A DNA stretch of 64,000 bases, from the NCBI GenBank assembly GCA_044229265.1, contig JBGATK010000003.1, positions 24,638 through 88,637 of the forward strand. Reading direction: 5' to 3'. The notes under the pieces are model-generated. The model was given only the letters and a program-made list of their open reading frames with translations. It was not told the DNA's origin and ran no database searches. This document shows positions 2,308-14,848 of the stretch, piece by piece. This stretch comes from Minisyncoccia bacterium (GTDB lineage: Bacteria; Patescibacteriota; Minisyncoccia; Phycocordibacterales; UBA9973). Within the stretch, counting starts at the first letter, position 1; each line of letters starts with the position of its first letter. The translations under genes were made by a program, and so were the position numbers.

Positions 2308-3342
2308 CTAAAAAACTTTAGAGAAAATAGAAATAAGTGGCGCCAGTAGATAGTCATACCAGTGTGGTTTATAAGTTTTAGGATCAAAAAGATTACTCTT
2401 TCCCTTCCATTTTTCAGCTATTTTTTCAAGCTCTCCCACTACCCTACTTTCTTCAAAAAAAACACCTATTTCTGAATTATAATCAAAAGAAAGAAAATCA
2501 ATATTTTGTGATCCTATTAGTGCCCTCTTGCCATCTATAATTAAAACTTTAGCATGGTTCATAAATGGCTCAGTATATACCTTGACCCCTAGGCCAGACA
2601 TTTTATTCATATAAAAATAATTCGCACGGTCTGGAATAAACCAATCTACATAATATGGCACTATTACTTCAACTTCCACGCCACGTATTACCGCTTGGTG
2701 AAGCACAGCCCGGAGCCAGCGTTTTGGTGCAAAATACGGAGTAATAATTGTGACTTTTTTTTCAGCCTTGTTAAGAGCTTCTTTGTATATTCTTTTTAAA
2801 CTAAATTTTCGCATCTCTGGAATATGTTCTACCATCCAGTTTTTAGCATTATCTATTTTTAATTTTTTGTTTTTACTTTTAAGGTATTCATCCTTGCCTC
2901 CGACAGAAACGTAGAATCTAGCAAAAGTTCGCAAAAGTTTACCCACCAATTTTTTGTTTTTTATTTCTACCATCAAATCTTTCCAGAAGAAAGTATCCTG
3001 TTTTAAATTTACCCCACCCATATAAGCTATCGTTTCATCTACTATCAAAATCTTGCGATGTATTCTATGAAAAATATGCGAGGAAAAAATAACTTCTATG
3101 CCAGCACCTTCGAGTTCGGCTACTGCTTTTTTATTTAAAGCAAAACTACCTACATAATCTAATACCAAATGAACTTTTACGCCTTGTTTTGCTTTTTTAA
3201 TTAAAAGCTCAAAAAAGTTGTATTTTTGCATATCATTATGGAATATATATATTTCAAGCAGAATGCTATTTTCAGAGCGTTCTATGGCGCTATACATAGC
3301 CTGCCAAGCCCTGGTAGAATCAGTAAAAAATCTGTATTGCAT
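2308..3342 (-). CDS. Phospholipase D family protein with two HKD motifs (cardiolipin-synthase-like)
   Basis: HRKILIVDE...GGVNL and HAKVLIIDGKRALIGSQNID motifs. Confidence 0.75.
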   Translation of the reverse strand: MQYRFFTDSTRAWQAMYSAIERSENSILLEIYIFHNDMQKYNFFELLIKKAKQGVKVHLVLDYVGSFALNKKAVAELEGAGIEVIFSSHIFHRIHRKILIVDETIAYMGGVNLKQDTFFWKDLMVEIKNKKLVGKLLRTFARFYVSVGGKDEYLKSKNKKLKIDNAKNWMVEHIPEMRKFSLKRIYKEALNKAEKKVTIITPYFAPKRWLRAVLHQAVIRGVEVEVIVPYYVDWFIPDRANYFYMNKMSGLGVKVYTEPFMNHAKVLIIDGKRALIGSQNIDFLSFDYNSEIGVFFEESRVVGELEKIAEKWKGKSNLFDPKTYKPHWYDYLLAPLISIFSKVF

Positions 3343-3387
3343 AGAGGCTATTATAGCATTAAAAATAGCTGTGTTATAATTTTTATA

Positions 3388-4221
3388 ATGAAAAAAATAC
3401 GAAAAATCAAGAAGAAAAATAAAAAATTTGGATTAAAACTTTATGGCATATTTGTATTTACTGTGATAACTAGTATGATGGGTAGTTTTTATGCTCTAGG
3501 TTTCAGGGTAGAAGATATGCTTGATATTTCTTTGTATCAAAATCTAGCCAACCCTTCAGTAAAAGTAGTTCGAGTATATGCTGGCCTTCGCAAAGAAGAA
3601 ATAGCCGAGGTTTTTTACAAAAATTTAAATTGGACAGAGAAAGAAGCCGAGGAATTTGCTAAAGCAAATTCCTCGGCCAATTCCTCCCCTATCGAAGGCA
3701 AATTACTACCAAAAACATATCTAATTAACAAAGACGCTACACCTGCCGAAGTTCAAAATATTATGCTTACGGAATTTGAAAAAGCTTTCACTAAAATTCA
3801 AGCCAAATCTAACAAAAAAATAATAAACGAAGAAATAATTATTAAAATCGCTTCTATAATACAACGTGAAGCTTCTGGTAAAAAAGACATGCCACTTATA
3901 TCCGGCATAATCTGGAATCGTTTTTGGCTAGGAATGAAGCTCGAAATGGATTCCACTATTCAGTATGTAAAAGGCAGTGAAGAAGCTGGCTGGTGGAAGC
4001 AAATTTCTGTGAAAGACAAAAAAATAGATTCGCCTTATAATACCTATCTATACGAAGGTTTTCCTCCAGGAGCCATATCAAACCCTAGCTTAGACGCCAT
4101 AAATGCCGCTTACAACCCGACTAAAACCAAATGCATCTTTTACATACATGACAAGCAAAAAAGAACTCACTGCAGTGAGACTTACGAAGAACACAAAAAG
4201 AATGTGGAAGAATATTTATAA
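3388..4221 (+). CDS. mltG: Endolytic murein transglycosylase MltG (YceG-like)
   Basis: N-terminal transmembrane segment and a C-terminal ...FPPGAISNPSLDAINAAYNP...EH motif block typical of MltG. Start placed at MKKIRK (3388) rather than the ORF's first Met. Confidence 0.65.
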   Translation: MKKIRKIKKKNKKFGLKLYGIFVFTVITSMMGSFYALGFRVEDMLDISLYQNLANPSVKVVRVYAGLRKEEIAEVFYKNLNWTEKEAEEFAKANSSANSSPIEGKLLPKTYLINKDATPAEVQNIMLTEFEKAFTKIQAKSNKKIINEEIIIKIASIIQREASGKKDMPLISGIIWNRFWLGMKLEMDSTIQYVKGSEEAGWWKQISVKDKKIDSPYNTYLYEGFPPGAISNPSLDAINAAYNPTKTKCIFYIHDKQKRTHCSETYEEHKKNVEEYL

Positions 4222-4263
4222 CATTTGCTTTTTTTATAAAATAAGCTAAAATGTCTTTTATTG

Positions 4264-4291
4264 GGCCGTTAGCTATCTGTAGCGCCTCGTA
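4264..4291 (+). pseudogene. Degenerate 5'-half fragment of tRNA-Ala
   Basis: GGGCCGTTAGCT-ATCTG-TAG-CGCC matches the first 28 nt of the intact tRNA-Ala at 4335, with small deletions. Confidence 0.5.
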
Positions 4292-4334
4292 AAAGCAAAG
4301 TTTAATATTTATAGTTTGATATAATTACATACAT

Positions 4335-4407
4335 GGGCCGTTAGCTCATCTGGTAGAGCACCTCATTTGCAATGAGGGGGTGGCAGGTTCGAGTCCTGTA
4401 CGGTCCA
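4335..4407 (+). tRNA. tRNA-Ala (anticodon TGC)
   Basis: GGGCCGT acceptor stem with the G3:U70 Ala identity pair, D-arm GCTCATCTGGTAGAGC, anticodon loop TTTGCAA, T-arm GCAGG-TTCGAGT-CCTGT. Confidence 0.85.
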
Positions 4408-5930
4408 CAGTTTAGAACATCGTTAGAAAAATCGGGCGCGCGCTTGCGCGCGAGAATGGAGGGCGAAGGGGTGAAATCCGAATGCGGGTTGTGGGATATA
4501 GCGAATTCGGTCGGTGGGCAAAATGAGACATAGACGGATTTTCCACACAATTGGGGGTTCGTTCCAATTTTTTTGAAATAGTCTTTAATTTCAAAAAAAT
4601 TGTCGCTTGAAATCAATTGCGTGGCTTTTTTCATATCTAAAATCCATTCCCGCAAGGGTTCAATCCAAATATTTCTCTCCTCTCGGGCAGAGTCCATTTT
4701 GTGAGCGAGAGATACTTTTTGTTTCAAAAGCTCGTCTTTTTTGGCTAGGTAGTTTGCTTTTGGTATATCGCCATCAAGAAAAAGGGTAATCAAATTATCT
4801 AGCTTTTGTTGTATCTCTCGCTCACGCTCTCTCATCTGCCCGACAGCACTTCCCGACGATACTTTTACTTCTTTTTCCCATTCGTCTGTTTGCTTGGTCA
4901 TATACTCAATCCATTCGTCGGGAAGTGAAATCTGCTGAAGCCGTTCTTTGAGTTGCAAGACGAGCTTGTCTTCCCGCAAATATCCTTGCAAACAATTTTT
5001 CTTTTTCGTACAGCGATAATACCGATACTTCGTACCAAAGCGATTGGTCGCCCATTGTGCGGTTATCATTCCTCCGCACTCACCACAACGGAAAAGTCCT
5101 GTGAAAGGAAAATTGTGTCCAACTTTTGTTTTGCGGGGTCTTGCTCGCTCTTGCAACCTTTTTTGAACGGCTTCAAATAGCTCGGGATAAATAATTGGCG
5201 CAAAGCTGCCTTGATGCCATTCGTCTCTGTGTTTTACTAAACCGATATATGCTTTGCTCGTGAGCAGAGAGACGATGGCGGCTTTGCCAAGTGGCGTTCC
5301 ACATTTCGTGATGACTCCATGTTCCGCCAAAAAGTGCGAGAGTGATAAGAGGGTGTGCTTACCCGTGGCGAATTCGGTATATCCTTTGAGAATAATTCTC
5401 GCGAGTACAGGATCAGGCTCAATGTTCCTCGTTCTTGGATTGTTCACATAGCCACGCGGTCCTTTGGTAAGCCACTCTCCACGCCTGACTTTTTGGCGAA
5501 TTCCTCGCTCAACATTTTGCTTTAAATTGTCAGAATAATACTTGGATTGTCCGAACGCCACTTGAAGCATAAAGAGTCCTTGCGGGGTAGGTTCAAACCA
5601 AAATGTCGGAAAGCGCAAAGACACAATCTTTTGAGTATCTACTGCGTAGATAACTCGTCCACCGTCAATTGAGTTTCTTGCTAATCTATCGGGATGCCAT
5701 GCGAGAATACCTGCTCCATCCATTGACTCTATGCGCGACATCATTTCACCAAACTTTTGACGACCCGGTGTCTTTGCGCTTTTTGACTCTTGAAATTCTT
5801 CTAGAATTTCAAGATTTTCTTTACGCGCGAACTCACGAAGCTCAAAGAGTTGAGCTTCAATACTCATGACTTGTTTGTCGTCTTCCTCCGTACTCTTTCG
5901 TGCGTATAGAAAATATTTTGGTTTGTTCAT
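4341..5930 (-). CDS. Large serine recombinase
   Basis: N-terminal YARKST...Q...SIEAQ catalytic motif, recombinase domain, CGECGG zinc-ribbon and coiled-coil. Start placed at MNKPKY (5930). The ORF has no stop until 4341, so it reads through the left IR and into tRNA-Ala; the true C-terminus is uncertain. Confidence 0.8.
   Translation of the reverse strand: MNKPKYFLYARKSTEEDDKQVMSIEAQLFELREFARKENLEILEEFQESKSAKTPGRQKFGEMMSRIESMDGAGILAWHPDRLARNSIDGGRVIYAVDTQKIVSLRFPTFWFEPTPQGLFMLQVAFGQSKYYSDNLKQNVERGIRQKVRRGEWLTKGPRGYVNNPRTRNIEPDPVLARIILKGYTEFATGKHTLLSLSHFLAEHGVITKCGTPLGKAAIVSLLTSKAYIGLVKHRDEWHQGSFAPIIYPELFEAVQKRLQERARPRKTKVGHNFPFTGLFRCGECGGMITAQWATNRFGTKYRYYRCTKKKNCLQGYLREDKLVLQLKERLQQISLPDEWIEYMTKQTDEWEKEVKVSSGSAVGQMREREREIQQKLDNLITLFLDGDIPKANYLAKKDELLKQKVSLAHKMDSAREERNIWIEPLREWILDMKKATQLISSDNFFEIKDYFKKIGTNPQLCGKSVYVSFCPPTEFAISHNPHSDFTPSPSILARKRAPDFSNDVLNCGPYRTRTCHPLIANEVLYQMS
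4405..4520. repeat. Left inverted repeat (X, 116 bp) flanking the serine recombinase gene
   Basis: Reverse complement equals 5987..6102 with one mismatch. GC-rich, with internal palindromes (CGCGCGCTTGCGCGCG; CCGAAT...ATTCGG). Overlaps the last 3 nt of tRNA-Ala. Confidence 0.9.
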
Positions 5931-5986
5931 ATATTTGTTTTTAGATTTGAAAAAAGAATCCGTGTTTGTCTCGTTTCTGAGCCCTA

Positions 5987-6102
5987 TGCCCACCGACCGA
6001 ATTCGCTATATTCCACAACCCGCATTCGGATTTCACCCCTTCGCCCTCCATTCTCGCGCGCAAGCGCGCGCCCGATTTTTCTAACGATGTTCTAAACTGT
6101 GG
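5987..6102. repeat. Right inverted repeat (X') of the recombinase unit
   Basis: Reverse complement of 4405..4520. Confidence 0.9.
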
Positions 6103-6356
6103 TCTAATCATTACCAATGCGCGAACTTTTTTTGAGGACCAAATGAATGATTGTGTACGCTCCACGCAAAGTGTTAATTTAAATTAATTCTTACGCTCTA
6201 CTAATATCTTAATTCTATCAAATTCAACAGATGCCGAGCAAGCTCGGCATCCTGCCCGAGTCCCATCGCAATCCTCCGCCCACTTCGCTTTGCGAAGTGT
6301 TGGCGGACAAGCATTCTTTATGATTCGGCGGGGGTTTCTTTTGATTTGGTATGGGG
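6098..6356. repeat. Long inverted repeat IR-A (about 259 bp), left copy
   Basis: Reverse complement of 14030..14286. Directly abuts X', overlapping it by 5 bp (TGTGG). GC-rich hairpins GATGCCGAGCAAGCTCGGCATC and CACTTCGCTTTGCGAAGTG. Confidence 0.9.
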
Positions 6357-6453
6357 GATGGGGTGAGGAAAAAAGTTTGACAAACCTATTCAATACGTTT
6401 AATATCATAGCATACTCGCTCTTTGAAAAACGATAGTTTGTTTATATATAATT

Positions 6454-6792
6454 TTGGGTAAGTTAAAGTCTCTTTTTTGGGCTTTTAACTTATTCAAAAT
6501 TATTTATTTACTAAATCAAAAAATTATGGAAAATCAAAATCTTAATTCAAAATCCTATCTTTTACTGCGAAAAACATTAAAAAATTTATGTGCGATGAGC
6601 TTTGTCTGCTTCATGTTATTCGGGTCTTTACTTTTTGGACATATAGACAATTACAAAGATTATTCTCACACAACATCAGAGTATGCTCAAATCAGACAAA
6701 CTATTAATCTATATTTTTGTTTTTCGTTAGTCTCAATTTTTACCTGTTTAGCTTTATTGATTACAATATTCACCAAAGATAAAGAAGATTAA
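6454..6792 (+). CDS. hypothetical membrane protein (112 aa)
   Basis: ORF with two hydrophobic segments. Confidence 0.45.
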   Translation: MGKLKSLFWAFNLFKIIYLLNQKIMENQNLNSKSYLLLRKTLKNLCAMSFVCFMLFGSLLFGHIDNYKDYSHTTSEYAQIRQTINLYFCFSLVSIFTCLALLITIFTKDKED

Positions 6793-6830
6793 ATTTAAAT
6801 CTTTACCTTAAACCTTAAAATTTTACTGAA

Positions 6831-6992
6831 ATGAAAAATTATCTGATTTTTTTATTGAGCACTTTGAAAACTGAAAATCAAATTAACAGAGAGATGCTAG
6901 AGGTGTTTATCCTTGGAGGAGTCATTGGAATAGTGCTAGGTAGCTTCGTTATGATACTGCGCAAAAAACAAGGCAAAAATACTCCCTCCTGA
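6831..6992 (+). CDS. possible small membrane protein (53 aa)
   Basis: ORF translated by hand (MKNYLIFLLSTLKTENQ...), with a hydrophobic core, followed by the terminator hairpin at 7016..7046. Confidence 0.3.
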   Translation: MKNYLIFLLSTLKTENQINREMLEVFILGGVIGIVLGSFVMILRKKQGKNTPS

Positions 6993-7045
6993 TTAAGATT
7001 TCAAAGTCATTAGATCAGAAGCCTGTTCAAATGTTCAGGCTTTTT

Positions 7046-7501
7046 TTATTTCCCTTTCAAATATTCACCAAAATCTTTAAATAGTCCTAAGGATGTCGCT
7101 CGTAGTTCTGCCCTTTTTTCTTTCGTAAGTCCAAGGACAACACTTGGGTCATGCAAATCCATTCTATTTGTTGTAGGAGATATGCACAAAAGTCCCTTTT
7201 CTTTTTCCCAATTCCAGATAATCATTTTCCAGTATATTCTTTCACCTTCTTTTGAACTAGAATTATTAAACTCTTTAGCAAGAGCACCTATTTTATTAAA
7301 CAGTTCTTCATTCAAATTTTGCCAGTCATCTTGTCCTGATTTTTTGAGTGAGAAAAATATATACGGCAAAACATATTTTTCTTGAGAAAGATTTGCTTTA
7401 TCACTCTCAATAAAATCTCCATCGTATCCATCATACATATTTATAACTTCACCACCAGCTGAATTAATATAATTTACTATCTCTATTGTTTCTTTAAGCA
7501 T
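7046..7501 (-). CDS. hypothetical protein (151 aa), second gene of the operon
   Basis: ORF; start overlaps the stop of the upstream gene. Confidence 0.5.
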   Translation of the reverse strand: MLKETIEIVNYINSAGGEVINMYDGYDGDFIESDKANLSQEKYVLPYIFFSLKKSGQDDWQNLNEELFNKIGALAKEFNNSSSKEGERIYWKMIIWNWEKEKGLLCISPTTNRMDLHDPSVVLGLTKEKRAELRATSLGLFKDFGEYLKGK

Positions 7502-8357
7502 AAGTTTTATTTATTCTTATAATGTTTTCAATTTCCTTCGACTTTTCAGAATATATACTGATTTCTTCTTTTGAAATTTGTTTGCCTTCCATAATCTTTT
7601 GAGCTAGTTTCTTCAGCACATCCTCAGAAACTAGACCTGTATCTACAAATCTTTCTAATTCTTCTTTGGAAATGGTGCTCTCGTTTTCTATAGTTTCATC
7701 AACTAAAAGATCTATGCCTTTGGTGCGATATTTCTTGAGTTGTATGGAAATCTCTATGAAGAACTTTTCTTCGGGTTTAAGGTTTGCGGATTCTCTTTGT
7801 AAATATGATTCAAGCGAAGCCCAGTCATCCATGGCTTTGGCTGTGAGGTCGAGTATTTCTGAGGTGCGCTTATCTCCATTCACATTTTCCATTTTCTCAT
7901 ATGCTTCTTGCCAGATATTTTGAATTTTGGAAAATTCGCTACCCAGCTCTTCGGTAGTATATCTTTTATTTTCTTTTGATAAATTTACGATTTCTTCCTC
8001 ACTGACTTTTTGTGTGTTTTCCATTGGTGCTTTTTCGCGCGCGCCGAGCACTTTCGCAAGTGCAAGAGCCGAAGCATAAATTTCTTGCTTTGTAGGACCA
8101 CCTTGTTCAGGAGAGAGCATTTTGCTTGCTTCTCTGTTTTGCGCTATTTCAACCCTATGTTTTTCCAATATGGAAAGTGGTTTTGCATATTCAAACTCAC
8201 GTCTGTATTCCAGAAGTGATTTTACTATGGATTTTGCGAAACTTAGCCTTAAGTTATACCAAAAAGAATTTTTTTTTGCTTCATTTTGACGCACATCCCG
8301 AGCGGTACTTTTAGCTCTTTCTCCATCAAAATTCACACTAAAGATTGATTCACTCAT
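7494..8357 (-). CDS. hypothetical protein (287 aa), first gene of a two-gene operon
   Basis: ORF with an 8-bp overlap to the downstream ORF. No recognised motifs. Confidence 0.5.
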   Translation of the reverse strand: MSESIFSVNFDGERAKSTARDVRQNEAKKNSFWYNLRLSFAKSIVKSLLEYRREFEYAKPLSILEKHRVEIAQNREASKMLSPEQGGPTKQEIYASALALAKVLGAREKAPMENTQKVSEEEIVNLSKENKRYTTEELGSEFSKIQNIWQEAYEKMENVNGDKRTSEILDLTAKAMDDWASLESYLQRESANLKPEEKFFIEISIQLKKYRTKGIDLLVDETIENESTISKEELERFVDTGLVSEDVLKKLAQKIMEGKQISKEEISIYSEKSKEIENIIRINKTYA

Positions 8358-8387
8358 AGCTATATTATATCACAAAATTGCATTTGC

Positions 8388-8654
8388 TTGGGAATGGATT
8401 ATAATCATTTTATGACTGATTTAGAGACAAATTTTACCCACCCCGAACTCCAAAAAGGAGAGGTTTTCTTTACAAATGCAGATCTTTCTCAGTTCAACGC
8501 TCTGGAGTTTAAATCAAAGCGAATGGGTAAAGTGGCGTATGATGGAAATGGAAATATGCAAAATCACGAGAATTGGTTTCCTGTATTCATAAATAATACG
8601 GAAGTAGAGACTTCCGGCTTTTCTCTTATGGAGTTGCGTAGGAAGCAAAATTAA
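8388..8654 (+). CDS. hypothetical protein (88 aa)
   Basis: ORF only. Confidence 0.35.
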   Translation: MGMDYNHFMTDLETNFTHPELQKGEVFFTNADLSQFNALEFKSKRMGKVAYDGNGNMQNHENWFPVFINNTEVETSGFSLMELRRKQN

Positions 8655-8760
8655 AATTAAAAAATTAAAATCCATTGCGATGCCTATTGCAATCTTTTTT
8701 TATATAAAAAAACACTTCCGACAAAGTTGCCGGAAGTGTAATTGGTAAATTCTTTATTTA

Positions 8761-9102
8761 TCAAGATTCAATAAAATCTAAGGATTTTCTGTCTAATAAT
8801 TCAATCCTTGTACCAAAATAAAGAAAAACAGCTAAAAATCCTCCTGCAAATGCATTTATTGCACTTGCAAAATAGCACAAACTTACATCATGTCGTGAAA
8901 AAAAATATTCCAAAACAATATTGCAAATTACGGCTAATGCTATTACAAAGAATCCTTCGATTCCATACCCAAGATAGAGTAAAATCATTATTGCTATCAA
9001 TGGGGTGAGGATTTGAGCAAAAAGCATTAACGTGCTTTCAAAAAACATGCCTGTCACTCCAAAAGCACAAATGAGTGTGGCTAACAAAACTTTTGTTTTC
9101 AT
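8761..9102 (-). CDS. hypothetical integral membrane protein (113 aa)
   Basis: Three or four hydrophobic helices. Confidence 0.45.
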   Translation of the reverse strand: MKTKVLLATLICAFGVTGMFFESTLMLFAQILTPLIAIMILLYLGYGIEGFFVIALAVICNIVLEYFFSRHDVSLCYFASAINAFAGGFLAVFLYFGTRIELLDRKSLDFIES

Positions 9103-9808
9103 AATTACAAATTTAAGAAATTTAGAAAATTATTTTTCGTCTTTGTATTCATCTGCGTCAGGAACAAATCCTTTTAGAAATTCAGTGGCTACTGCTAAAA
9201 AGTTTTCTACTGATTCTCTTTTCTGAATGAAATCATGCATATTTTTTTCAAAATCGTATTTCATTTGTTCGCAGAGATGTTTTAAGAGTACTAGCTGTAA
9301 GTCTCTTAGAATACAGTATTCTTTATTTCGTTGAAGTAATGTGCCAGCTTCTTTGCTAGTTTCAATCTTCGTCTAATCTTTTAAAGCAAGCCTCGGCTTT
9401 ATCAAGAAATTTTGAAAAAAATAACGGGTAAAATCCGTTAATAGGAACGTTTGGTTGATGCATAAATTTTAATTTAATGTGGTTTAACAATAATTTTTCA
9501 AATAAGATATTAAAATTAAGATACCACAAAAATAGATTTTTGGCAATAAAAAAGGGCCTGTATAGCCGGCGCGTGCTTTTTACTTATCACCACATACTAC
9601 CCAATACAGCACATGCATCCCAAAAATATTTAAAACTCGCCTCTGCCAGTTTTCTGTCCTTTGCTGTGATTATGAGTTTTTTATTTTTCATGGACTTTCT
9701 TGATTTATTTTTGATGGGTGATTTGTCTTTCAAAGAAAAGAAAAAAGTTAGAATGTAAGGTGCCCCATTCTTAAGACAAAAAGTTAACCAATTAAATGTA
9801 TTGTATTC

Positions 9809-10726
9809 CTAAGCGATTTTTTTAGCAAATTTCTTTGTAAACTCTCTCGGCGACATACGCAGAGCCGTGTGTATTCGAGAGGTATTGTAAATATGTATGG
9901 TGTGGTAAATCTCATAAACCAGTTCTCCTAAAGTATCAAACCTGTTGGTATCTCCAAGATCAATCTTGAACTTATCATAGTAGCTTTCTTGATACCCATT
10001 CTGCCAAGGTGATCCTTTAGCTGACATTGAAATTTGGATACCACCAGATGTGCAAAAATCTTGAAATATTTCTGAAGTATATTCACTGCCTTGATCGGAG
10101 TGAATGATATCCGGTCGTGGATGATCCATGAGGGCACTGACTAAAGCTTGCAACACTAGAGCGCTAGAATGATTTGCTAGTACACAAACTCCGACTATCT
10201 CTCGATTGTAAATATCTTCAACTGTAGCCACATAAATGAACCTATTCTTGTACCAGAGATATGTAAAATCTGTCACCCAGATTTGATTCATTCTTGTTAG
10301 CGGAGTGGTAATTAACAGATTCGGATATTCTTCATAATCCGTTGATTTTACTCGTTTCCACGGCTTCCTGTGCCTTCTATATGGCTTGATGCCATAGATC
10401 TTCATTACCCGAAGTATTCTTTTCTTGTTTAGCTTGAGCTCTATTGCCAGCCTCTTGTGTCCATAACTAGGAAAAGTCTCCCACACCTTCTCTATTTGTT
10501 TTTTAATTTCTCCATCTTCACTTCTCTTCTTGCTTTTGTAATACAAAGAACTTCTAGAAACTTCAAATATCTCATGAAGCTTCTTATGGTTTACCGCCAC
10601 CCCTTTTTTTGTCCAACCCCTAGTTGGACTGTGAGCTCTCCGATGATTTGCTTTAATTCCTTGTTTTCTTTGGTGAGCTTCATTATCTCTTTGGATGTTG
10701 TTCCTTCGACACCACTTTTTAACCAT
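9809..10726 (-). CDS. IS3 transposase OrfB (DDE integrase core), probably expressed as an OrfAB fusion by -1 frameshift
   Basis: Integrase-core motifs (WVTDFTY..., HSDQGSEYTS, SPWQNG). The frame is -1 relative to OrfA. Confidence 0.8.
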   Translation of the reverse strand: MVKKWCRRNNIQRDNEAHQRKQGIKANHRRAHSPTRGWTKKGVAVNHKKLHEIFEVSRSSLYYKSKKRSEDGEIKKQIEKVWETFPSYGHKRLAIELKLNKKRILRVMKIYGIKPYRRHRKPWKRVKSTDYEEYPNLLITTPLTRMNQIWVTDFTYLWYKNRFIYVATVEDIYNREIVGVCVLANHSSALVLQALVSALMDHPRPDIIHSDQGSEYTSEIFQDFCTSGGIQISMSAKGSPWQNGYQESYYDKFKIDLGDTNRFDTLGELVYEIYHTIHIYNTSRIHTALRMSPREFTKKFAKKIA

Positions 10727-10854
10727 TCGTATATCGTAGTTTTACTAATGCCATGTTCCTCTGATATTTCTTTGATTGTTTTACCACTCGTCTTTACTCT
10801 TTCCAATATTTGATTTTTTAGATCTTTACCCACTCTAAATTTTTTATTAGACAT
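10591..10854 (-). CDS. IS3 transposase OrfA (HTH)
   Basis: HTH motif ISKTTIYEW and a leucine-zipper-like region; ends at the frameshift window. Confidence 0.75.
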   Translation of the reverse strand: MSNKKFRVGKDLKNQILERVKTSGKTIKEISEEHGISKTTIYEWLKSGVEGTTSKEIMKLTKENKELKQIIGELTVQLGVGQKKGWR

Positions 10855-10947
10855 ATGCTCAATTAAAATTACTGGTATATCGACTATTATACCGCTAATC
10901 TTGGTTGAAAATGTGTCTTAATTTTGGGGTACCTGTCAGAACGAATA

Positions 10948-11115
10948 ATGAATTTATTTTCTAAAAAATCTACAATCACGAATGATGAAGTAGAAAAACT
11001 TTTGCATTGCTCGGATGCAACGGCAACGAGATATCTCTCACAACTAGAAAAAGAAAATAAGATAAAAAGAAATGGGAAAGAGCGAGGTAAGTATGTATCA
11101 TATTCTAAAATCTAG
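10948..11115 (+). CDS. small winged-helix/HTH protein or C-terminal fragment of an IS-disrupted gene (55 aa)
   Basis: The listed ORF starts inside the IS terminal repeat. Internal Met at 10948. An HTH-like stretch ATRYLSQLEKENKIKR. Confidence 0.35.
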   Translation: MNLFSKKSTITNDEVEKLLHCSDATATRYLSQLEKENKIKRNGKERGKYVSYSKI

Positions 11116-11172
11116 ATAAAAAAATCCCCGAGTGAACGAGGATTTATATAATCATATTTGAAACTTGTAAAT

Positions 11173-11532
11173 CTAACTACCTAAAAAATTATTTCTGTTA
11201 TCATCGTTATCAAATAACGGTACATATTCCATATCTTCTGCGGTTGGGAACGCAAGTTTTGTTGTATTTCTTATGTTTGCCCATTTTTCATCATCAATCT
11301 GGTTTAGCTCAATGTTCCTTAGCTTGTTGTCTTCAAGTATTTTTAAGACTTCCACAGATTCTTTGTTCTCTTCAAACCATTTGGAAAATTGTCTGTATTC
11401 CTCCAGTTTTTGTTTCCCGTTCTTGAGTGTAGAGATTTGATCATAATGATGTATGAAAAGCCTGTCTAAAAATGGAACATTTTGGATGTAAGTTTCAAAT
11501 AGCTTCAAAAATTTTTCATTTTGCGTATTCAT
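11173..11532 (-). CDS. hypothetical small protein, paralog A (119 aa)
   Basis: Shares motifs with 12139..12456 (F/Y..P..HHY, WFE(E/K)NKES.VVL, C-terminal (P/G)LFDN). Confidence 0.55.
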   Translation of the reverse strand: MNTQNEKFLKLFETYIQNVPFLDRLFIHHYDQISTLKNGKQKLEEYRQFSKWFEENKESVEVLKILEDNKLRNIELNQIDDEKWANIRNTTKLAFPTAEDMEYVPLFDNDDNRNNFLGS

Positions 11533-11548
11533 GATTTTTGTATTTTAA

Positions 11549-11600
11549 GTGAATAATAAGTTTTCAGAAAAATAGCTTTCGCTGAAAACTTATTATTCAC
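11549..11600. promoter_or_regulatory. Perfect 19-bp inverted repeat (GTGAATAATAAGTTTTCAG / CTGAAAACTTATTATTCAC) with a 14-nt spacer, just upstream of paralog A
   Basis: Seen in sequence. Role as a terminator, operator or leader structure is unresolved. Confidence 0.5.
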
Positions 11601-11617
11601 TGTATTTATCAAAGTAC

Positions 11618-11813
11618 CTTATATCTGTATATTCTGCCTTTTTCCCTGTATTGTCAATCTAATTTAGGGAGCAGAAAGGTGCGCGAAAGGGAGGGTGGGT
11701 AAGCACCTGTATTCTGCGCCTTCAGGCATTTCCGCTAGGGTGTTCAGGGCTAAATGACGAGCGCCACGGTGTATTGCAAATTAATTCTCGAAGACGAAAG
11801 TCATACTCTCTAA
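11618..11813 (+). repeat. Structured repeat R, copy 1 (about 196 nt); candidate ncRNA
   Basis: Conserved 5' block (CCTTATATCTGTATATTCTGCC...TGTATTGTCAATC), a variable stem-loop, then a 90-nt conserved 3' block shared with 13496..13713. Confidence 0.6.
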
Positions 11814-12138
11814 TGAAATTAGTAGCTAGAGTATGCGGCTTATTGACATTTCCATTTAAGTCCATCATGTCTCCAGTAATACATAGAATATCAATCGAAG
11901 TTCTTGCTCTAGAATATAAAAATTCCTACAATCTCTCTAAGAACAATTTAATTTTATCATTATCCAACTTTATACCTTTACTTAGATCTTCACTTAAATG
12001 GAAATCCGTTAGATGCAAAATATATATTGGGTTTGACATTTATTTATTGTATAGTTCTTTCAATAATTGAGAAAATTAATTTAATATAATAAAAAAGGTC
12101 ATCTATATGATGACCTTAAATAAATCTTAAGAATTAAA

Positions 12139-12456
12139 TTAATTATCAAAAAGACCTATAGGCTCTTCAACACTAGCCAATGTTGGCATCATGAATTTTA
12201 TCTTGCCTCGTTCTAAATTAATCTCATTTCTTCTATTTTGAATCAACTTCTGTATTTGATTTTCGTGCTTATCAAAAACAGATAAAACAACCTGTGATTC
12301 CTTATTTTTTTCGAACCACGTATCAAATGAATCAAAATCTGCCAATTTAGTTTCAGGATCCAATTCTACATAATAATGATAAAGTAGTACTCCATTATAT
12401 GGAAAACGCGTTAAGTAAGCTTCTAACATTGTTAGAAAAATCTGTTCTTTGTGCAT
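12139..12456 (-). CDS. hypothetical small protein, paralog B (105 aa)
   Basis: Paralog of 11173..11532. Confidence 0.55.
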   Translation of the reverse strand: MHKEQIFLTMLEAYLTRFPYNGVLLYHYYVELDPETKLADFDSFDTWFEKNKESQVVLSVFDKHENQIQKLIQNRRNEINLERGKIKFMMPTLASVEEPIGLFDN

Positions 12457-12497
12457 TTTATAAAATTTTAGCCGTTGGGCTTCTATAAAAACATAGA

Positions 12498-12544
12498 TTT
12501 ACCACAGCCAAAAAGCTTTATCATTACCTTTTGGCTGTGGTAAA
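12498..12544. promoter_or_regulatory. Perfect 16-bp inverted repeat (TTTACCACAGCCAAAA / TTTTGGCTGTGGTAAA) upstream of paralog B
   Basis: Seen in sequence. Same arrangement as the hairpin upstream of paralog A but with a different sequence. Confidence 0.5.
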
Positions 12545-12665
12545 TCCAATACCATTTACAAGGTTCAAATATATGATTTACATTAATTATGCCAAAAGCT
12601 AAAATATAAATCAAGTAATCTCAGGTGATTAAAAATATAACGCAATAAAAGGAGAAGAGATCAAA

Positions 12666-12884
12666 GTGCTTAGATTCCTCCGTTATTATTCAGTCTTTAA
12701 TGTTGAAGACATTGAAGGTGCTGAATTAGACCTAAACCGGTTTAAAGAGGTAAAATTGACCGATAGCTTGATAGAAAACAGCTCTTCTTATCTTATGAAT
12801 GTCCTCAAAGAAGACCCGAAATATATCTTCAAGATTTCGGCTGAAGCTCAAAAGGCTGTGAACCTAATAATAGGTGCTCATTGA
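12666..12884 (+). CDS. hypothetical protein (72 aa), GTG start with an AAGGAG ribosome-binding site
   Basis: ORF with a well-spaced Shine-Dalgarno-like AAGGAG. Confidence 0.4.
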   Translation: MLRFLRYYSVFNVEDIEGAELDLNRFKEVKLTDSLIENSSSYLMNVLKEDPKYIFKISAEAQKAVNLIIGAH

Positions 12885-13495
12885 GTTGATTAATTGTAAT
12901 TTTAATTAGGAATTGCTATAATTTAACAAAGTTATAATTTTGCTCATTGTCAGTTAAAATTAATAATAGGACAGAGGTATATATATAAATATTATTTATA
13001 TATGTATATAAAATATTCATTATCAAGCTTATGATTATGAAAATAATCTTAATTTTCCTTGGATTTTATAGTAAGATAGATTATATTCGCCTAATTTTAT
13101 TGAACAGGATAGAAAAAGACGAAGCAGTCAATATTTTCAACCTGAACTCAATTTTCAAGTCAATATTATTGATAGTAGTAACTAAAATAAAAGTGGGCAC
13201 CTGTTAGGTACCCACAACGCTCATAAGAGCAGGTGGAGTATTAAATGTAATACCAAGTGTTCTAATGCAATTCTGAGTTGCCTTAGATTTTCAGCTTTAG
13301 TATTATCATTCCTCCACTTTTGGAGAAAAGTAAAAATACTCATAAGAACAAATTTTACATTTCTCCAGTTATCTCAAAAGCGCTAATAATTACATTAGCG
13401 CTTTTATTTTTTAATCATTAGTAGAGAAGAAACTGTTCAGAAACAAAAAAGCCACCTAGATGGTGGTGGTGCAATGAGGGGTGGAATGTCGCGTG

Positions 13496-13713
13496 CCTTA
13501 TATCTGTATATTCTGCCTTTTCCTCTGTATTGTCAATCAAGGGAGGCAACTTCGTGCACGCAAGGGTGGGAGCCCCGACGTAATCGTCGGAGCTGGGGGC
13601 AAGCACGAGGCTTCTGCGCCTTCAGGCATTTCCGCTAGGGTGTTCAGGGCTAAATGACGAGCGCCACGGTGTATTGCAAATGAGTTCTCGAAGACGAAAG
13701 TCATACTCTCTAA
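13496..13713 (+). repeat. Structured repeat R, copy 2 (about 218 nt)
   Basis: Same conserved 5' and 3' blocks as copy 1. The variable stem carries compensatory changes (GGTGC/GCACC in copy 1, CGTGC/GCACG in copy 2). Confidence 0.6.
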
Positions 13714-13865
13714 CAGCTATATTGAAAAAGAGGATGGGGGTTGGCGTAACCGCTGGGGGAAGGAACACTTCCTTCCCCCAACTAGTGGTGTGCAATTTTC
13801 TTTTCCTGAACGGCTCATTTCTTCCCATTTTAGCCGTTCCTTGTAAAATGCACACCTCCTAGGCT

Positions 13866-13900
13866 GGCGCTCGAGCCCTAGCGGAAATGCCTGAGGCGGA
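13866..13900 (-). repeat. Partial inverted copy of the R core (R3)
   Basis: CCCTAGCGGAAATGCCTGAGGCG is the reverse complement of the R core CGCCTTCAGGCATTTCCGCTAGGG. Confidence 0.5.
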
Positions 13901-14029
13901 TGCCGAGGGTGCCACCCTTTAGCACTGAACACAATACTACAGAAATGAAAGAAGGCTCAATATAAAAACTGAATTTTGCATTTAAATTTCACACTTCCTT
14001 CTTTGAAGGAAGTTGACCGAGCCCATCGC

Positions 14030-14286
14030 CCATACCAAATCAAAAGAAACCCCCGCCGAATCATAAAGAATGCTTGTCCGCCAACACTTCGCAAAGCGAA
14101 GTGGGCGGAGGATTGCGATGGGACTCGGGCAGGATGCCGAGCTTGCTCGGCATCTGTTGAATTTGATAGAATTAAGATATTAGTAGAGCGTAAGAATTAA
14201 TTTAAATTAACACTTTGCGTGGAGCGTACACAATCATTCATTTGGTCCTCAAAAAAAGTTCGCGCATTGGTAATGATTAGACCACA
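14030..14286. repeat. Long inverted repeat IR-A', right copy
   Basis: Reverse complement of 6098..6356. The outer end ...GATTAGACCACA mirrors the X'/IR-A junction. Confidence 0.9.
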
Positions 14287-14503
14287 CTTATAAAAAAGAG
14301 TCTTCGCAAGAAGGCCTTTTTTATTGTGTGGAACGTAAGCAAAGTATCTATTTACTTTGCGTCAGGACGAGAAAAGCTTTTCGTTACAAATTTTGATTAA
14401 AATCAAAATTTGTCGAAAAGGTATACTGTTCCTGTAAGGAAAGAGTCCTCTACTGTCCACAAATTTTAAAGCCATTTCTATGATGTAGAAATGGCTTTGT
14501 TTT

Positions 14504-14848
14504 TTAATACGTTGTCTGCATTTTACGTAATAAGACATATATCCTCTTTGTTATGCCTATTATTTCCCACAAGCGTGGATCCAACTCACGTGCACCTTCC
14601 CAGGATTGATGATGTAATAAAATTTCATGGAAATCTACAAGCGATTTTAAATGATGATTTACATCTTTCCAATTGTGGTTGTTAAAATCTTCATCAAAAA
14701 GGAAATTTTCGACAAAGTCAAAAGATTCCTTTCTTTTTTCAAATTCGGTATTAATTTCAGGGCCGAACTTTATAAAGTTATTAATGCCACTGAAAAAAAC
14801 AGTGGTTCGTGCTCGGTCAAAAGCTGTGAGTTTTTCTGTCTGCATCAT
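14504..14848 (-). CDS. hypothetical protein (114 aa)
   Basis: ORF followed on the minus strand by a hairpin at 14468..14500. Confidence 0.4.
   Translation of the reverse strand: MMQTEKLTAFDRARTTVFFSGINNFIKFGPEINTEFEKRKESFDFVENFLFDEDFNNHNWKDVNHHLKSLVDFHEILLHHQSWEGARELDPRLWEIIGITKRIYVLLRKMQTTY

What the first reader, a model, noticed from the sequence alone, without database searches (positions are those of the whole stretch)
4335..6102. Large serine recombinase gene embedded between 116-bp near-perfect inverted repeats, abutting the 3' end of tRNA-Ala
Positions 4405-4520 and 5987-6102 are reverse complements with a single mismatch. Both copies are GC-rich in an AT-rich genome and carry internal palindromes. 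Between them sits a 530-residue serine recombinase (YARKST..Q motif, zinc ribbon, coiled-coil).

The left repeat begins on the last CCA-proximal nucleotides of tRNA-Ala (CCACAG). The recombinase ORF has no stop codon inside the repeat, so it is read through the repeat and into the tRNA. A minus-strand transcript would therefore carry complementary 116-nt 5' and 3' ends.

This does not match the known architectures of large-serine-recombinase elements, which lack long terminal inverted repeats, nor IS607. It looks like a recombinase-bearing invertible or transposable unit of an undescribed kind.
Basis: partly seen in the sequence, partly recalled or inferred. Interest (0 to 1): 0.8.

Follow-up and report, generated by a model that had tools for sequence, protein, structure and literature searches.

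The report
tRNA-targeting serine-integrase island with duplicated arms
The 116-bp inverted repeats are real, but they bracket the integrase gene of a roughly 10-kb mobile island inserted at the end of a tRNA gene; the island belongs to a widespread family in Patescibacteria (candidate-phyla bacteria), apparently undescribed, whose attachment-site arms are always duplicated in inverted orientation.

Summary
Arms 4405-4520 and 5987-6102 are 115/116 complementary. They flank a 529-aa large serine recombinase (LSR) whose ORF has no stop codon of its own and ends inside antisense tRNA-Ala.

The repeat pair does not mark the ends of a 1.7-kb transposon. A second inverted pair (6095-6362 / 14022-14289, 268 nt) starts at the same 5-nt core, CCACA. 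A strain 98.8% identical to the window joins tRNA-Ala directly to window position 14463, so 4410-14462 is a 10-kb insertion.

Layout: tRNA|core|I-arm, LSR, I-arm'|core'|M-arm, cargo, M-arm'|core|flank.

The same layout recurs in more than 120 Patescibacteria loci, at the 3' ends of tRNA-Glu, Ala, Ser, Arg, Ile and others, and of tmRNA. The cargo varies between loci.

Within one element the two arm copies are about 99% identical, yet the arms diverge between elements faster than the recombinase gene does. They therefore evolve in concert.

Rare isomers with the LSR segment flipped exist in 6 loci.

Best reading: an LSR integrative element whose site arms are duplicated around an internal, promoter-bearing site. 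Why the duplication is kept is unresolved. I found no published description of this architecture.

The parts
4335..4408 (+). tRNA-Ala(TGC), the integration target. Its T-arm and acceptor 3' strand form the left (bacterial) half of the attachment site, and the gene stays intact.
   Evidence: ARAGORN; Rfam 63.6 bits. In 132 of 148 related loci an antisense tRNA or tmRNA gene abuts the recombinase-distal repeat.
4405..4409 (+). Core copy 1 (CCACA) = junction J1, tRNA|core|I-arm (attL-like). It comprises the last two acceptor nucleotides, the discriminator and CA.
   Evidence: The same 5 nt occur at 6098-6102 (inverted), 14282-14286 and 14458-14462. The core nucleotides follow the identity of the tRNA across the family: TCAC for Glu, CCAC for Ala, GCAC for Arg/Gly, CCGC for Ser.
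4405..4520 (+). IR1 left arm (I-arm). It encodes the last ~39 codons of the recombinase ORF before the core and contains a GC hairpin plus T-run that faces out of the segment.
   Evidence: The frame is open in 52/52 elements, while the other two frames carry 24 and 74 stops.
4341..5930 (-). Large serine recombinase gene, 529 aa. Start MNKPKYFLYARKST; stop codon 4341-4343 lies inside the antisense tRNA-Ala.
   Evidence: Pfam PF00239, PF07508, PF13408. More than 6500 homologues were found; the best 120 are 62-84% identical, and the three of them that carry a source's own name are candidate-phyla/Patescibacteria; the genome-derived loci are almost all Patescibacteria.
4521..5986 (-). Unique segment S1 (1466 nt) between the IR1 arms: the recombinase coding region plus a 56-nt leader.
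   Evidence: Family median S1 length is 1459 nt. In L107, S1 also holds two extra genes.
5987..6102 (+). IR1 right arm (inverted I-arm). It is the presumed 5' untranslated region of the recombinase mRNA. Its outer 5 nt are core copy 2 (TGTGG, 6098-6102) = junction J2.
6103..6362 (-). M-arm (IR2 near arm). The core-proximal ~40 nt are conserved across the family and look like a sigma-70-type promoter pointing through the core into the recombinase gene. There is also a GTTCGCGC motif and a terminator-like hairpin at 6229-6252.
   Evidence: Inverted repeat 6095-6362 / 14022-14289, 268 nt, 99%. Flank conservation. Hairpin. Near-identical elements share sequence exactly to the inner end of this arm.
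6363..14021 (.). Segment S2 (7659 nt), the cargo. Strong promoter-like sites sit at 6377-6452 (+). Contents: small hypothetical ORFs and an IS3-family transposase pair at 9809-10854 (-). GC is low, like the host (about 0.3).
   Evidence: The S2 of other elements carries unrelated accessory genes.
14022..14286 (+). IR2 far arm (m-arm) ending in core copy 3 (14282-14286) = junction J3, m|core|flank (attR-like).
   Evidence: The same m|core|X junction with the tRNA-specific core is seen in 7 other loci and in a Logan contig of the same organism.
14287..14462 (+). 176-bp remnant between J3 and the true host flank. It has a terminator-like hairpin (14300-14315), an inverted core-like TGTGTGG (14327-14333), a degenerate copy of the tRNA-Ala 3' end (14443-14462, 17/19 identical to 4391-4409) and core copy 4 (14458-14462).
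   Evidence: It is absent from the conspecific empty site L178. Similar modules lie beyond J3 in L111 and L059.
14463..14505 (+). Native sequence downstream of tRNA-Ala (hairpin plus T-run). In the empty-site strain it follows the tRNA directly.
   Evidence: L178 reads ...ggtCCACA|aattttaaagccatt..., matching window 14443-14505.

Best explanation
The repeat pair belongs to an integrated mobile island of about 9.9 kb (4410-14286), plus a 176-bp older remnant reaching to 14462. The island sits at the 3' end of tRNA-Ala and is mobilised by its large serine recombinase (LSR).

Layout: tRNA | core | I-arm, LSR gene (pointing at the tRNA), I-arm' | core' | M-arm, cargo, M-arm' | core | flank.

There are three recombination-site-like junctions that share one short core, which spans tRNA positions 71-73:
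- J1 (tRNA|I) is attL-like.
- J3 (m|flank) is attR-like. J1 and J3 are in direct orientation, so recombining them would excise the island and restore tRNA|core|flank.
- J2 (m|I) is internal and inverted. It has the sequence that such an excision would give the circle junction (attP), so each att arm is present twice in inverted orientation.

The 268-bp repeats are the two copies of the M-arm.

J2 sits between the divergently oriented recombinase unit and, in 16 of the 17 elements with a complete S2, the cargo unit; in this window most cargo ORFs instead read toward J2. It carries the conserved promoter-like sequence for the recombinase directly beside the core, so I infer it acts as promoter and operator, much as the res site does in Tn3. 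The distal arm copies carry outward-facing terminator-like hairpins.

Because J2 is inverted relative to J1 and J3, recombination at the cores, or homologous exchange between the arms, can flip either segment. Such isomers exist but are rare.

Shown: the anatomy, its recurrence across the family, the empty sites, concerted evolution of the arms, and the rare isomers.

Inferred: that the LSR catalyses these reactions, where exactly the crossover occurs, the promoter/operator role of J2, and the reason the duplication is maintained.
For: - Two adjacent inverted-repeat pairs share the core.
- A conspecific contig, L178 (98.8% identical over 1.9 kb), joins the tRNA-Ala end to window 14463. The related species L176 keeps the synteny PLD-YceG-tRNA-Ala-terminator-two genes-HisKA without the insert.
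- The same architecture appears in 122 elements with a complete IR1 (median 120 nt). IR2 was found in 11 of 29 and in about 22 further loci with enough flank, 2-7.7 kb away.
- Many contigs stop about k-1 nt into the M-arm. That is expected if the assembly graph branches exactly at the core.
- Junction J3 carries the tRNA-specific core in 7 loci. The shortest shared core is TCA.
- Elements 94% identical to each other sit at tRNA-Ser(CGA), (GCT) and (GGA) with unrelated cargo, and their similarity ends at the inner edge of the M-arm.
- Targets across the family: Glu 57, Ala 20, Ser 16, Arg 15, Ile 8, plus others and tmRNA.
- Arm copies are a median 99.2% identical within an element. Between elements they match only 25-63% where the recombinase segment is 80-90% identical.
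- Flipped isomers: L045, L050, L014=L105, L149, L163, L165. L145 and L146 are identical except for an inverted S2.
- Cargo reads away from J2 in 16 of 16 other complete elements.
- Promoter-like and terminator-like sites lie where the model needs them.
- The cargo is accessory or defence-type: type I restriction-modification, an OLD-family nuclease, an XRE regulator, enzymes.
Against: - No read-level or experimental evidence of excision, of a circular form, or of inversion within a population.
- Canonical serine integrases do not recombine attP with attL or attR, so LSR-catalysed flipping is not what the textbook predicts. The strong orientation bias (about 125:6 for S1, 16:1 for S2) shows that flipping is at most rare.
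- The m-arm and I-arm do not resemble each other, and the flank half-site (X) is not conserved. That is atypical for LSR att sites.
- No recombination directionality factor was identified.
- The 176-bp remnant ending in a tRNA-like copy leaves open that the true right end, and so the true attP, is at 14462 rather than 14286.
- Conservative recombination cannot create the inverted duplication. Its origin and the selective reason it persists are unexplained.
- The L145/L146 difference could be an assembler's arbitrary choice, because IR2 exceeds read length.
Confidence: 0.65

Rival explanations
1. The 1.7-kb segment 4405-6102 is itself a transposon with 116-bp terminal inverted repeats, moved by its serine recombinase, which happened to land beside tRNA-Ala.
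For: The repeats are terminal to a single-gene unit of IS-like size. Many metagenome contigs carrying the gene are only 1.7-2.5 kb.
Against: - Family-conserved sequence continues beyond the right repeat and is itself repeated 7.7 kb away.
- The conspecific empty site lacks 10 kb, not 1.7 kb.
- The cores at the two repeat tips lie on opposite strands, and the flanking dinucleotides differ in every locus inspected. This does not fit a conservative 2-nt crossover insertion.
- The short contigs are explained by assembly breaks at the repeats.
Confidence: 0.05
2. The duplicated arms exist for base pairing or isomerisation of the free form. The excised element would be a circle in which two inverted copies of a ~390-bp site region (m-core-I) separate the recombinase and cargo segments. 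This resembles the two inverted repeats of the yeast 2-micron circle. Alternatively, a single strand of it folds into a dumbbell whose stem is the duplex attachment site, as in the CTX-phi single-stranded attP.
For: - J2 is contiguous I'-core'-M, so in a circle the two repeat pairs merge into one long inverted duplication.
- The interiors of the arms are poorly conserved between elements but about 99% identical within an element. That pattern is expected when pairing, not sequence, matters.
- On paper, integration of a dumbbell, followed by replication and attL x attR resolution, reproduces exactly the observed layout (inference, notebook entry).
- No phage or conjugation genes are present, and almost no relatives occur in viral contigs.
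Against: - No circular or single-stranded form has been observed, and the cargo contains no replication or rolling-circle gene.
- The model predicts 50:50 orientation unless selection intervenes, whereas the observed bias is strong.
- Intramolecular gene conversion between nearby inverted repeats can also keep the arms identical.
Confidence: 0.12
3. RNA-level function. The repeats act in the recombinase transcript: a 5' leader complementary to the 3' coding end forms a ~116-bp duplex, and the terminator-like hairpin lying before any stop codon yields a non-stop mRNA. Together these would keep recombinase levels very low.
For: The promoter-like site in the M-arm would start transcription at the core, so the whole I-arm would be 5' leader. 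A hairpin plus T-run sits at 4452-4425 on the gene strand, upstream of the stop codon at 4341. The ORF is open through the arm in all elements.
Against: It cannot explain the second repeat pair around the cargo, whose predicted promoters lie inside S2. The T-run after the hairpin is not conserved in all subgroups. There are no transcript data. This function is compatible with the best explanation rather than an alternative to it.
Confidence: 0.1
4. A fixed, non-mobile DNA-inversion (phase-variation) switch, or an assembly artefact.
For: Inverted repeats flanking a recombinase gene resemble the Salmonella hin segment. Inverted repeats are also a known source of chimeric assemblies.
Against: There is presence/absence polymorphism within a species. 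Nearly identical elements sit at different tRNA genes with different cargo. Two copies occur in one closed chromosome at different tRNAs (L047 and L077). The architecture is found in more than 120 independent assemblies made with different assemblers. Orientation is nearly fixed, unlike a switch.
Confidence: 0.03

Closest known systems
Serine-integrase (large serine recombinase) integrative elements and prophages, e.g. phiC31, Bxb1, A118, SCCmec/Ccr
   Same: Same domain set: Resolvase + Recombinase + zinc ribbon. The integrase gene lies directly beside an attachment site at one end of the island. The insertion is precise with a short shared core and does not damage the target. The cargo is accessory genes.
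   Different: - The target is the 3' end of tRNA/tmRNA genes. A 2020 survey found only 14 of 297 serine-integrase elements at such genes and said this use had not been reported before (PMC7192596).
- Both att arms are duplicated as long inverted repeats around an internal attP-like site.
- The ORF runs through the site and has no stop codon of its own.
- The protein is very distant from solved LSRs: the only sequence hit to a solved structure is a catalytic domain, 3guv, E = 1e-7.
- It is essentially absent from viral contigs.
Tyrosine-integrase genomic islands at tRNA/tmRNA genes (Islander-type islands, tycheposons)
   Same: Same target class and the same sublocation at the 3' end. The integrase sits next to the tRNA. 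The islands are small and carry variable accessory or defence cargo. Remnants accumulate at the same site.
   Different: The recombinase family and chemistry are different. There is no long identity block that regenerates the tRNA 3' end: the shared core is 3-8 nt. The inverted-repeat architecture has no counterpart in those islands.
Serine invertase systems: Salmonella Hin H-segment, Mu Gin / P1 Cin
   Same: A serine recombinase gene lies inside a segment bounded by inverted sites, as hin does. A neighbouring segment is also bounded by inverted repeats, with the crossover points at the outer ends of long repeats, as I recall for the P1 C-segment (from memory, not checked). Alternative orientations are observed in 6 loci.
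   Different: Those enzymes are small serine recombinases with a C-terminal helix-turn-helix, 26-bp sites and a Fis-dependent enhancer. They switch gene expression and are not the mobility enzyme. Here orientation is nearly fixed, and inverting the cargo has no evident regulatory consequence.
Tn3-family res site
   Same: A recombinase-binding site sits between divergent transcription units and could serve as operator for the recombinase gene (inferred for J2). Its length, about 115-120 bp, is similar to that of the I-arm.
   Different: res is a single direct-repeat resolution site for a small resolvase and works alongside a separate DDE transposase. Here no subsites have been demonstrated.
Tn4451/Tn5397 (TnpX/TndX) and IS607 serine transposons
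   Same: Mobility is driven by a serine recombinase. The element family uses many different target genes.
   Different: No DUF4368-type C-terminal domain was detected. There is no GA or GG end dinucleotide rule. IS607 transposases are small, carry an N-terminal MerR-like domain and come with TnpB. None of these elements has long inverted repeats or specificity for tRNA ends.

Membership tests
Large serine recombinase (serine integrase) family | N-terminal resolvase-type catalytic domain with the serine nucleophile motif | tested here: met
   PF00239, E = 6e-22, residues 28-174 of the 550-aa ORF. Y-A-R-K-S-T is invariant in 20 homologues. That the serine in this motif is the nucleophile comes from general knowledge, not from a test here.
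Large serine recombinase (serine integrase) family | Recombinase domain plus zinc-ribbon domain C-terminal to the catalytic domain | tested here: met
   PF07508 (E = 3.5e-7) and PF13408 (E = 1.7e-9). The precomputed Pfam domains are the same in all listed homologues but P0058, a shorter (454-aa) protein covering 81% of the query that lacks the catalytic-domain hit.
Large serine recombinase (serine integrase) family | Coiled-coil motif inserted in the zinc-ribbon domain, controlling directionality | not tested
   The region at about residues 350-440 looks heptad-rich by eye in the alignment. No structure prediction or coiled-coil analysis was run.
Large serine recombinase (serine integrase) family | Recombination between attP and attB with a 2-nt staggered crossover, with a directionality factor needed for the reverse reaction | not testable with these tools
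   Only the junction sequences are available. The shared core of 3-8 nt is compatible with this mechanism.
Site-specific integrative genomic island | Presence/absence polymorphism with a precise junction in otherwise collinear genomes | tested here: met
   L178 (98.8% identical) and L176 (syntenic relative) lack window 4410-14462.
Site-specific integrative genomic island | Short direct repeat (core) at both ends, with the integrase gene at one end | tested here: met
   CCACA at 4405-4409, 14282-14286 and 14458-14462. The LSR gene is adjacent to the left junction.
   The flank beyond the right repeat is conserved across species and duplicated within the element. The empty site removes 10 kb.
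IS607 family | Small serine recombinase with an N-terminal MerR-like DNA-binding domain, usually accompanied by tnpB | tested here: not met
   The domain order is catalytic domain first, then Recombinase/Zn-ribbon. No TnpB-like ORF lies between the repeats.
Tn4451/Tn5397-type LSR transposons | TnpX/TndX-type C-terminal domain and identical end dinucleotides (GA) | tested here: not met
   Only three Pfam families matched at E <= 0.01. The junction dinucleotides vary with the tRNA.
Serine DNA-invertase switch (Hin/Gin/Cin) | Segment bounded by inverted crossover sites and found in both orientations | tested here: inconclusive
   Inverted cores bound both segments. Opposite orientation of S1 is seen in 6 of about 130 loci and of S2 in the pair L145/L146. 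No within-population data are available, and orientation is otherwise nearly fixed.
Serine DNA-invertase switch (Hin/Gin/Cin) | Small recombinase (~190 aa) with a C-terminal helix-turn-helix | tested here: not met
   The protein is a 529-aa LSR.

The most novel reading that the evidence does not exclude
The inverted duplication of the whole attachment region is the point of the design. The free form would be a circle, or a single strand folded into a dumbbell, in which two inverted copies of a ~390-bp m-core-I region separate the recombinase module from an exchangeable cargo module. That would make it a bacterial, serine-recombinase counterpart of the yeast 2-micron circle or of the folded attP of CTX-phi. 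It would be used by a family of elements that spreads among Patescibacteria without phage or conjugation genes and targets the universal T-arm/acceptor end of tRNAs. A corollary follows from the ORF having no stop codon of its own: the recombinase C-terminus would differ between the integrated state (tail read from the antisense tRNA) and the excised or flipped state (tail read from the M-arm). That difference could act as a built-in sensor of state.
Probability: 0.12. Interest if true: 0.85.

Novelty: new variant of a known kind. Interest (0 to 1): 0.66.

Why it matters
Patescibacteria (the candidate phyla radiation) have tiny genomes, and few of their mobile elements are characterised.

It contradicts the working rule that tRNA and tmRNA genes are targets of tyrosine integrases rather than serine integrases.

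It offers a set of natural large serine recombinases that recognise the conserved 3' end of many different tRNAs. That is of interest both for understanding how att sites are recognised and as a source of integrases with predictable, near-universal landing sites.

The conserved inverted duplication of both att arms evolves in concert and is almost never lost. No current model of serine-integrase elements explains it, and it can be tested directly with long reads and in vitro recombination.

Tried and rejected
- **Rfam scans** of 3000-8000 and 6000-14600 at a permissive threshold found nothing but the tRNA.
- **RNAalifold** on 16 M-arms gave no consensus structure, because the alignment was too gappy. 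I therefore make no claim that the M-arm encodes an RNA.
- **Single-sequence folds** of the I-arm interior gave only a modest signal: median z = -1.6, with 47 of 122 below -2.
- **Viral contigs**: one relative at 37% identity, so a prophage integrase reading is rejected.
- **Solved structures**: only one catalytic-domain hit by sequence.
- **Literature**: seven full-text searches found no description of this architecture.
- **Logan contigs of the same organism** (L172, L175) show the same filled arrangement and break at the repeats, so they gave no empty site. The empty site came only from homologues of the flanking YceG protein.
- **Terminal-repeat transposon test**: I looked for identical dinucleotides just outside the repeat tips and found none in the loci inspected.
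- **Arm similarity**: I looked for resemblance between the m-arm and the inverted I-arm, which typical attP symmetry would predict. None is evident. The only shared motif is GTTCG in the m-arm, 6 nt further from the core than the T-loop GTTCG in the tRNA. This was assessed by eye only.
- **Remnant**: I considered that the 176-bp remnant is part of the element. This is unresolved. A related hairpin motif also occurs at an empty tRNA-Glu site in L062, which favours an older remnant.
Full report
**1. Checking the observation**

The window contains an inverted repeat with arms at 4405-4520 and 5987-6102. It is 116 nt long, 99% complementary, with 1466 nt between the arms. A 61-nt piece of it occurs only at these two places in the 64 kb, against none expected by chance.

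ARAGORN and Rfam place tRNA-Ala(TGC) at 4335-4408 on the + strand. The left arm therefore overlaps the last 4 nt of the tRNA call (ARAGORN end 4408; Rfam ends it at 4407): the last two acceptor nucleotides, the discriminator and the next base.

The minus-strand ORF 4341..5993 matches Resolvase, Recombinase and Zn_ribbon_recom, so it is a large serine recombinase (LSR). Homologues start at the ATG at 5930 (MxKPKYFLYARKST), which gives 529 aa. The ORF has no stop codon in the repeat and ends at 4341-4343, inside the antisense tRNA.

The region 4300-6400 has GC 0.44-0.48, against about 0.33 around it.

**2. The repeat pair is half of a larger structure**

The GC-rich block runs about 260 nt past the right arm. 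A wider repeat search found a second inverted pair, 6095-6362 and 14022-14289. It is 268 nt long, 99% complementary, with 7659 nt between the arms. Its first 8 nt overlap the end of the first pair.

Reading the + strand gives this order:
- tRNA-Ala
- CCACA (4405-4409)
- I-arm
- LSR gene, on the minus strand
- I-arm', ending in TGTGG (6098-6102)
- M-arm (6103-6362)
- 7.66 kb of cargo
- M-arm', ending at 14281
- CCACA (14282-14286)
- other sequence

So there are three junctions sharing one core:
- J1 = tRNA|core|I
- J2 = m|core|I, inverted and internal
- J3 = m|core|X

J1 and J3 are in direct orientation. They look like attL and attR, and J2 has the sequence of the attP that recombining them would create.

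**3. Empty sites**

I searched for homologues of the flanking YceG/MltG protein and looked up their contigs.

L178 is 98.8% identical to window 2476-4409. It reads ...ggtCCACA|aattttaaagccatt..., which joins window 4409 to window 14463.

L176 comes from a related species whose YceG is 69% identical. It keeps the order PLD, YceG, tRNA-Ala, terminator, two small genes, histidine kinase. The window has the same order at 2308-16985, but L176 has only 187 nt between YceG and the next gene.

The window therefore carries a 10,053-bp insertion, 4410-14462, placed exactly after the tRNA end. It has two parts:
- the LSR element, 4410-14286;
- a 176-bp remnant, 14287-14462, that ends in a degenerate copy of the tRNA-Ala 3' end (17/19 identical) followed by a fourth CCACA.

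Similar modules lie beyond J3 in L111 and L059. A related hairpin motif occurs at an empty tRNA-Glu site in L062. I read the remnant as older debris at the same site, but I cannot exclude that it is the true right end of the element.

**4. The family**

The LSR has more than 6500 database relatives. The best 120 are 62-84% identical and many sit on contigs of only 1.7-2.5 kb; only three of them carry a source's own name, all candidate-phyla/Patescibacteria.

I fetched 80 loci from species-representative genomes and 80 from JGI metagenomes, each set chosen from more than 560 confirmed relatives.

Repeats and targets:
- In 122 elements with enough flank, the gene is bracketed by inverted repeats. 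Median repeat length is 120 nt (range 103-152), and the median unique segment is 1459 nt.
- In 132 of 148 evaluable loci, the repeat downstream of the gene overlaps the 3' end of an antisense tRNA or tmRNA gene.
- The targets are Glu 57, Ala 20, Ser 16, Arg 15, Ile 8, then Val, Leu, Gly, Lys, Met and Tyr, plus tmRNA. Rfam confirmed tmRNA in further loci.
- The outermost repeat nucleotides follow the identity of the tRNA: TCAC for Glu, CCAC for Ala, GCAC for Arg/Gly, CCGC for Ser. The other repeat copy and J3 carry the same nucleotides.
- The shortest core shared by all three junctions is TCA (L028). This places the crossover at tRNA positions 71-73.

Evidence that the second repeat pair is general:
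- Outside the upstream repeat, about 40 nt are conserved in all elements (TTC.AAA.A.GTTCGCGCAAAGG.TA..AT..CA|core). Behind them lie 150-230 nt of hairpin-rich, semi-conserved sequence.
- An inverted second copy of this M-arm was found 2-7.7 kb away in 11 of 29 genome loci, and in about 22 metagenome loci.
- Many contigs end about k-1 nt into the M-arm: roughly 50 nt for SPAdes, 126 for k127, 140 for k141, and 29 nt in a Logan contig from the window's own organism. This is what an assembly-graph branch exactly at the core would produce.

Evidence of mobility and variable cargo:
- Elements 94% identical to each other sit at three different tRNA-Ser genes. Their cargo is unrelated, and their similarity ends at the inner edge of the M-arm.
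- One closed Nomurabacteria chromosome has two copies at different tRNAs (L047 and L077).
- Cargo is diverse: a GTP cyclohydrolase II-methyltransferase fusion, an aromatic amino-acid lyase, a beta-helix/PKD protein, XRE regulators, a type I restriction-modification system, an OLD-family nuclease. In the window it is an IS3-family transposase pair and small hypothetical proteins.
- Only one distant relative (37% identity) exists in 2.9 million viral contigs.

**5. Why the repeat-bounded unit is not the transposon**

There are four reasons:
- Element sequence is conserved beyond the repeat.
- The empty site removes 10 kb, not 1.7 kb.
- The two outer tips of the 116-bp repeats carry the core on opposite strands.
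- The dinucleotides just outside the tips differ in every locus inspected.

A serine recombinase inserting a circle by a 2-nt staggered exchange leaves the same dinucleotide, on the same strand, at both junctions. This rule comes from established knowledge of the family. J1 and J3 satisfy it. J1 and J2 do not, because they are related by inversion.

**6. What the duplicated arms do**

*Concerted evolution.* The two I-arm copies of one element are a median 99.2% identical, and 83 of 122 are at least 98% identical. Between elements, the arms match only about 25% of positions when the recombinase segment is 80-85% identical, and 63% when it is 85-90% identical. The copies therefore evolve in concert. 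The duplication is almost never lost: L120 is the only clear exception, and in L107 the arms are simply further apart because S1 holds two extra genes.

*The frame stays open.* The recombinase frame is open through the I-arm into the flank in 52 of 52 elements. The other two frames carry 24 and 74 stops.

*Orientation is nearly fixed.* The recombinase points at the tRNA in all but six loci. In L045 and L050 the tRNA lies upstream. In L014=L105, L149, L163 and L165 the gene reads into an M-arm. In 16 of 16 other complete elements, the cargo genes read away from J2. The window is the exception, with most cargo ORFs reading toward J2. L105 and L163 differ in cargo orientation. L145 and L146 are identical except for an inverted S2, though that could be an assembler's arbitrary choice. 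So all four isomers exist, but one dominates.

*Expression signals.*
- The conserved core-proximal part of the M-arm fits a sigma-70-type promoter: -35 TTGAAA/TTCAAA, a 17-18 nt spacer, and -10 TAnnAT ending 4 nt before the core. It points into the recombinase gene.
- Strong promoter-like sites lie just inside S2, at 6377-6452.
- Terminator-like hairpins face outward in both I-arms (4452-4437 on the minus strand; 6055-6070 on the plus strand).
- Terminator-like hairpins also face outward in both M-arms (6252-6229 on the minus strand; 14132-14155 on the plus strand).

*Interpretation.* I infer that J2 is the promoter and operator region lying between two divergent units, and that the distal arm copies end those units just before the cores. 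This would leave the junction that forms on excision transcriptionally silent. It gives a plausible reason why integration yields one orientation. It does not explain why the copies must be identical.

Two candidate explanations for the identity are intramolecular gene conversion between nearby inverted repeats, or a pairing function in a free form (a 2-micron-like circle, or a single-strand dumbbell whose stem is the attachment site). I could not discriminate between them.

**7. Comparison with known systems**

By domain content the protein is a member of the LSR family. By sequence it is very distant from any solved LSR.

The element works like a serine-integrase island. Its target class is the one associated with tyrosine integrases. 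A 2020 survey found 14 of 297 serine-integrase elements at t(m)RNA genes, and stated that such use had not been reported before (PMC7192596).

The gene-inside-inverted-sites arrangement recalls hin. The central site between divergent units recalls Tn3 res. Two inverted repeats dividing a circle recall the 2-micron plasmid. None of these is a membership: in each case the defining recombinase type or site structure fails.

Seven literature searches found no description of this architecture. The searched library does not include most subscription-journal papers.

**8. Verdict**

It is a new variant of a known kind, namely a serine-integrase integrative element. The family is large, its target class is unexpected, and the double inverted-repeat design is conserved and unexplained.

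Noticed in passing
window 4264-4290: A degenerate copy of the 5' part of tRNA-Ala (gggccgttagctatctgtagcgcctcg) lies about 45 nt upstream of the real gene. It is also present in the conspecific empty-site contig L178, so it is unrelated to this insertion. It may be a relic of an older rearrangement at the tRNA.
   Followed up: partly
window 14287-14462: A 176-bp module sits between J3 and the native flank. It has core | terminator-like hairpin | inverted core-like TGTGTGG, then three small hairpins, then a 17/19 copy of the tRNA-Ala 3' end and another CCACA. A similar module follows J3 in L111 (78% over 73 nt), and a tRNA-Ser 3' copy lies about 166 nt beyond J3 in L059. It could be a miniature or decayed element of a related kind.
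   Followed up: partly
window 4425-4452 (minus strand) relative to the stop codon at 4341-4343: A GC hairpin followed by CCCGATTTTT lies inside the recombinase ORF, about 90 nt before its only stop codon. If it terminates transcription, the mRNA would lack a stop codon and the protein would be a substrate for tmRNA tagging. The T-run is not conserved in all subgroups of the family.
   Followed up: partly
window 6363-14021: Unlike 16 of 16 other complete elements, most cargo ORFs in this window read toward the central junction (1080 aa toward, 93 aa away). Either the cargo segment is inverted here, or it has been rearranged, perhaps by the IS3-family element at about 9.8-10.9 kb.
   Followed up: partly
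window 11614-11813 and 13493-13713; ORFs 11173-11532 and 12139-12456: Two direct repeats, 93-94% identical (46 nt at 11614-11659 / 13493-13538 and 117 nt at 11697-11813 / 13597-13713), lie about 1.9 kb apart inside the cargo. Two small ORFs near them appear paralogous (similar N-terminal ...FLK/TxLExYxxxxPF... motifs, judged by eye) and have no Pfam match.
   Followed up: no
window 813-919 and 1575-1681 (also 313-345 / 1035-1067): Direct repeats of 107 nt (88% identical) and 33 nt lie upstream of the adjacent small ORFs 355-762, 1078-1518 and 1649-2176. This suggests a tandemly duplicated gene family next to tRNA-Asn.
   Followed up: no
L165:3100-5033; also L067 and L170 downstream flanks: In L165 the recombinase segment is flanked on both sides by M-type arms that differ from each other (about 79-85% identical). 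That is expected for a tandem array of two elements or for a circle junction. L067 and L170 have a T-arm-like hairpin (ACAAAGTTCGAA...) at the junction that neither ARAGORN nor Rfam calls as a tRNA.
   Followed up: partly
M-arm, tRNA T-loop and recombinase gene 3' end (window about 4550-4560, 4386-4392, 6125-6131): The pentamer GTTCG recurs at three conserved places: in the tRNA T-loop (19 nt before position 72), in every M-arm (25 nt before the same position, so 6 nt further out and in the same reading frame as seen from the recombinase ORF), and as GGGTTCGTTCC inside the gene about 45 nt from the inner end of the I-arm. It may be a recognition motif, or it may be coincidence.
   Followed up: no
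L081, L009, L143 (related loci): Some family members are inserted at the 3' end of the tmRNA gene next to smpB. This shows that the recombinase recognises the tRNA-like T-arm/acceptor end rather than a particular tRNA.
   Followed up: yes
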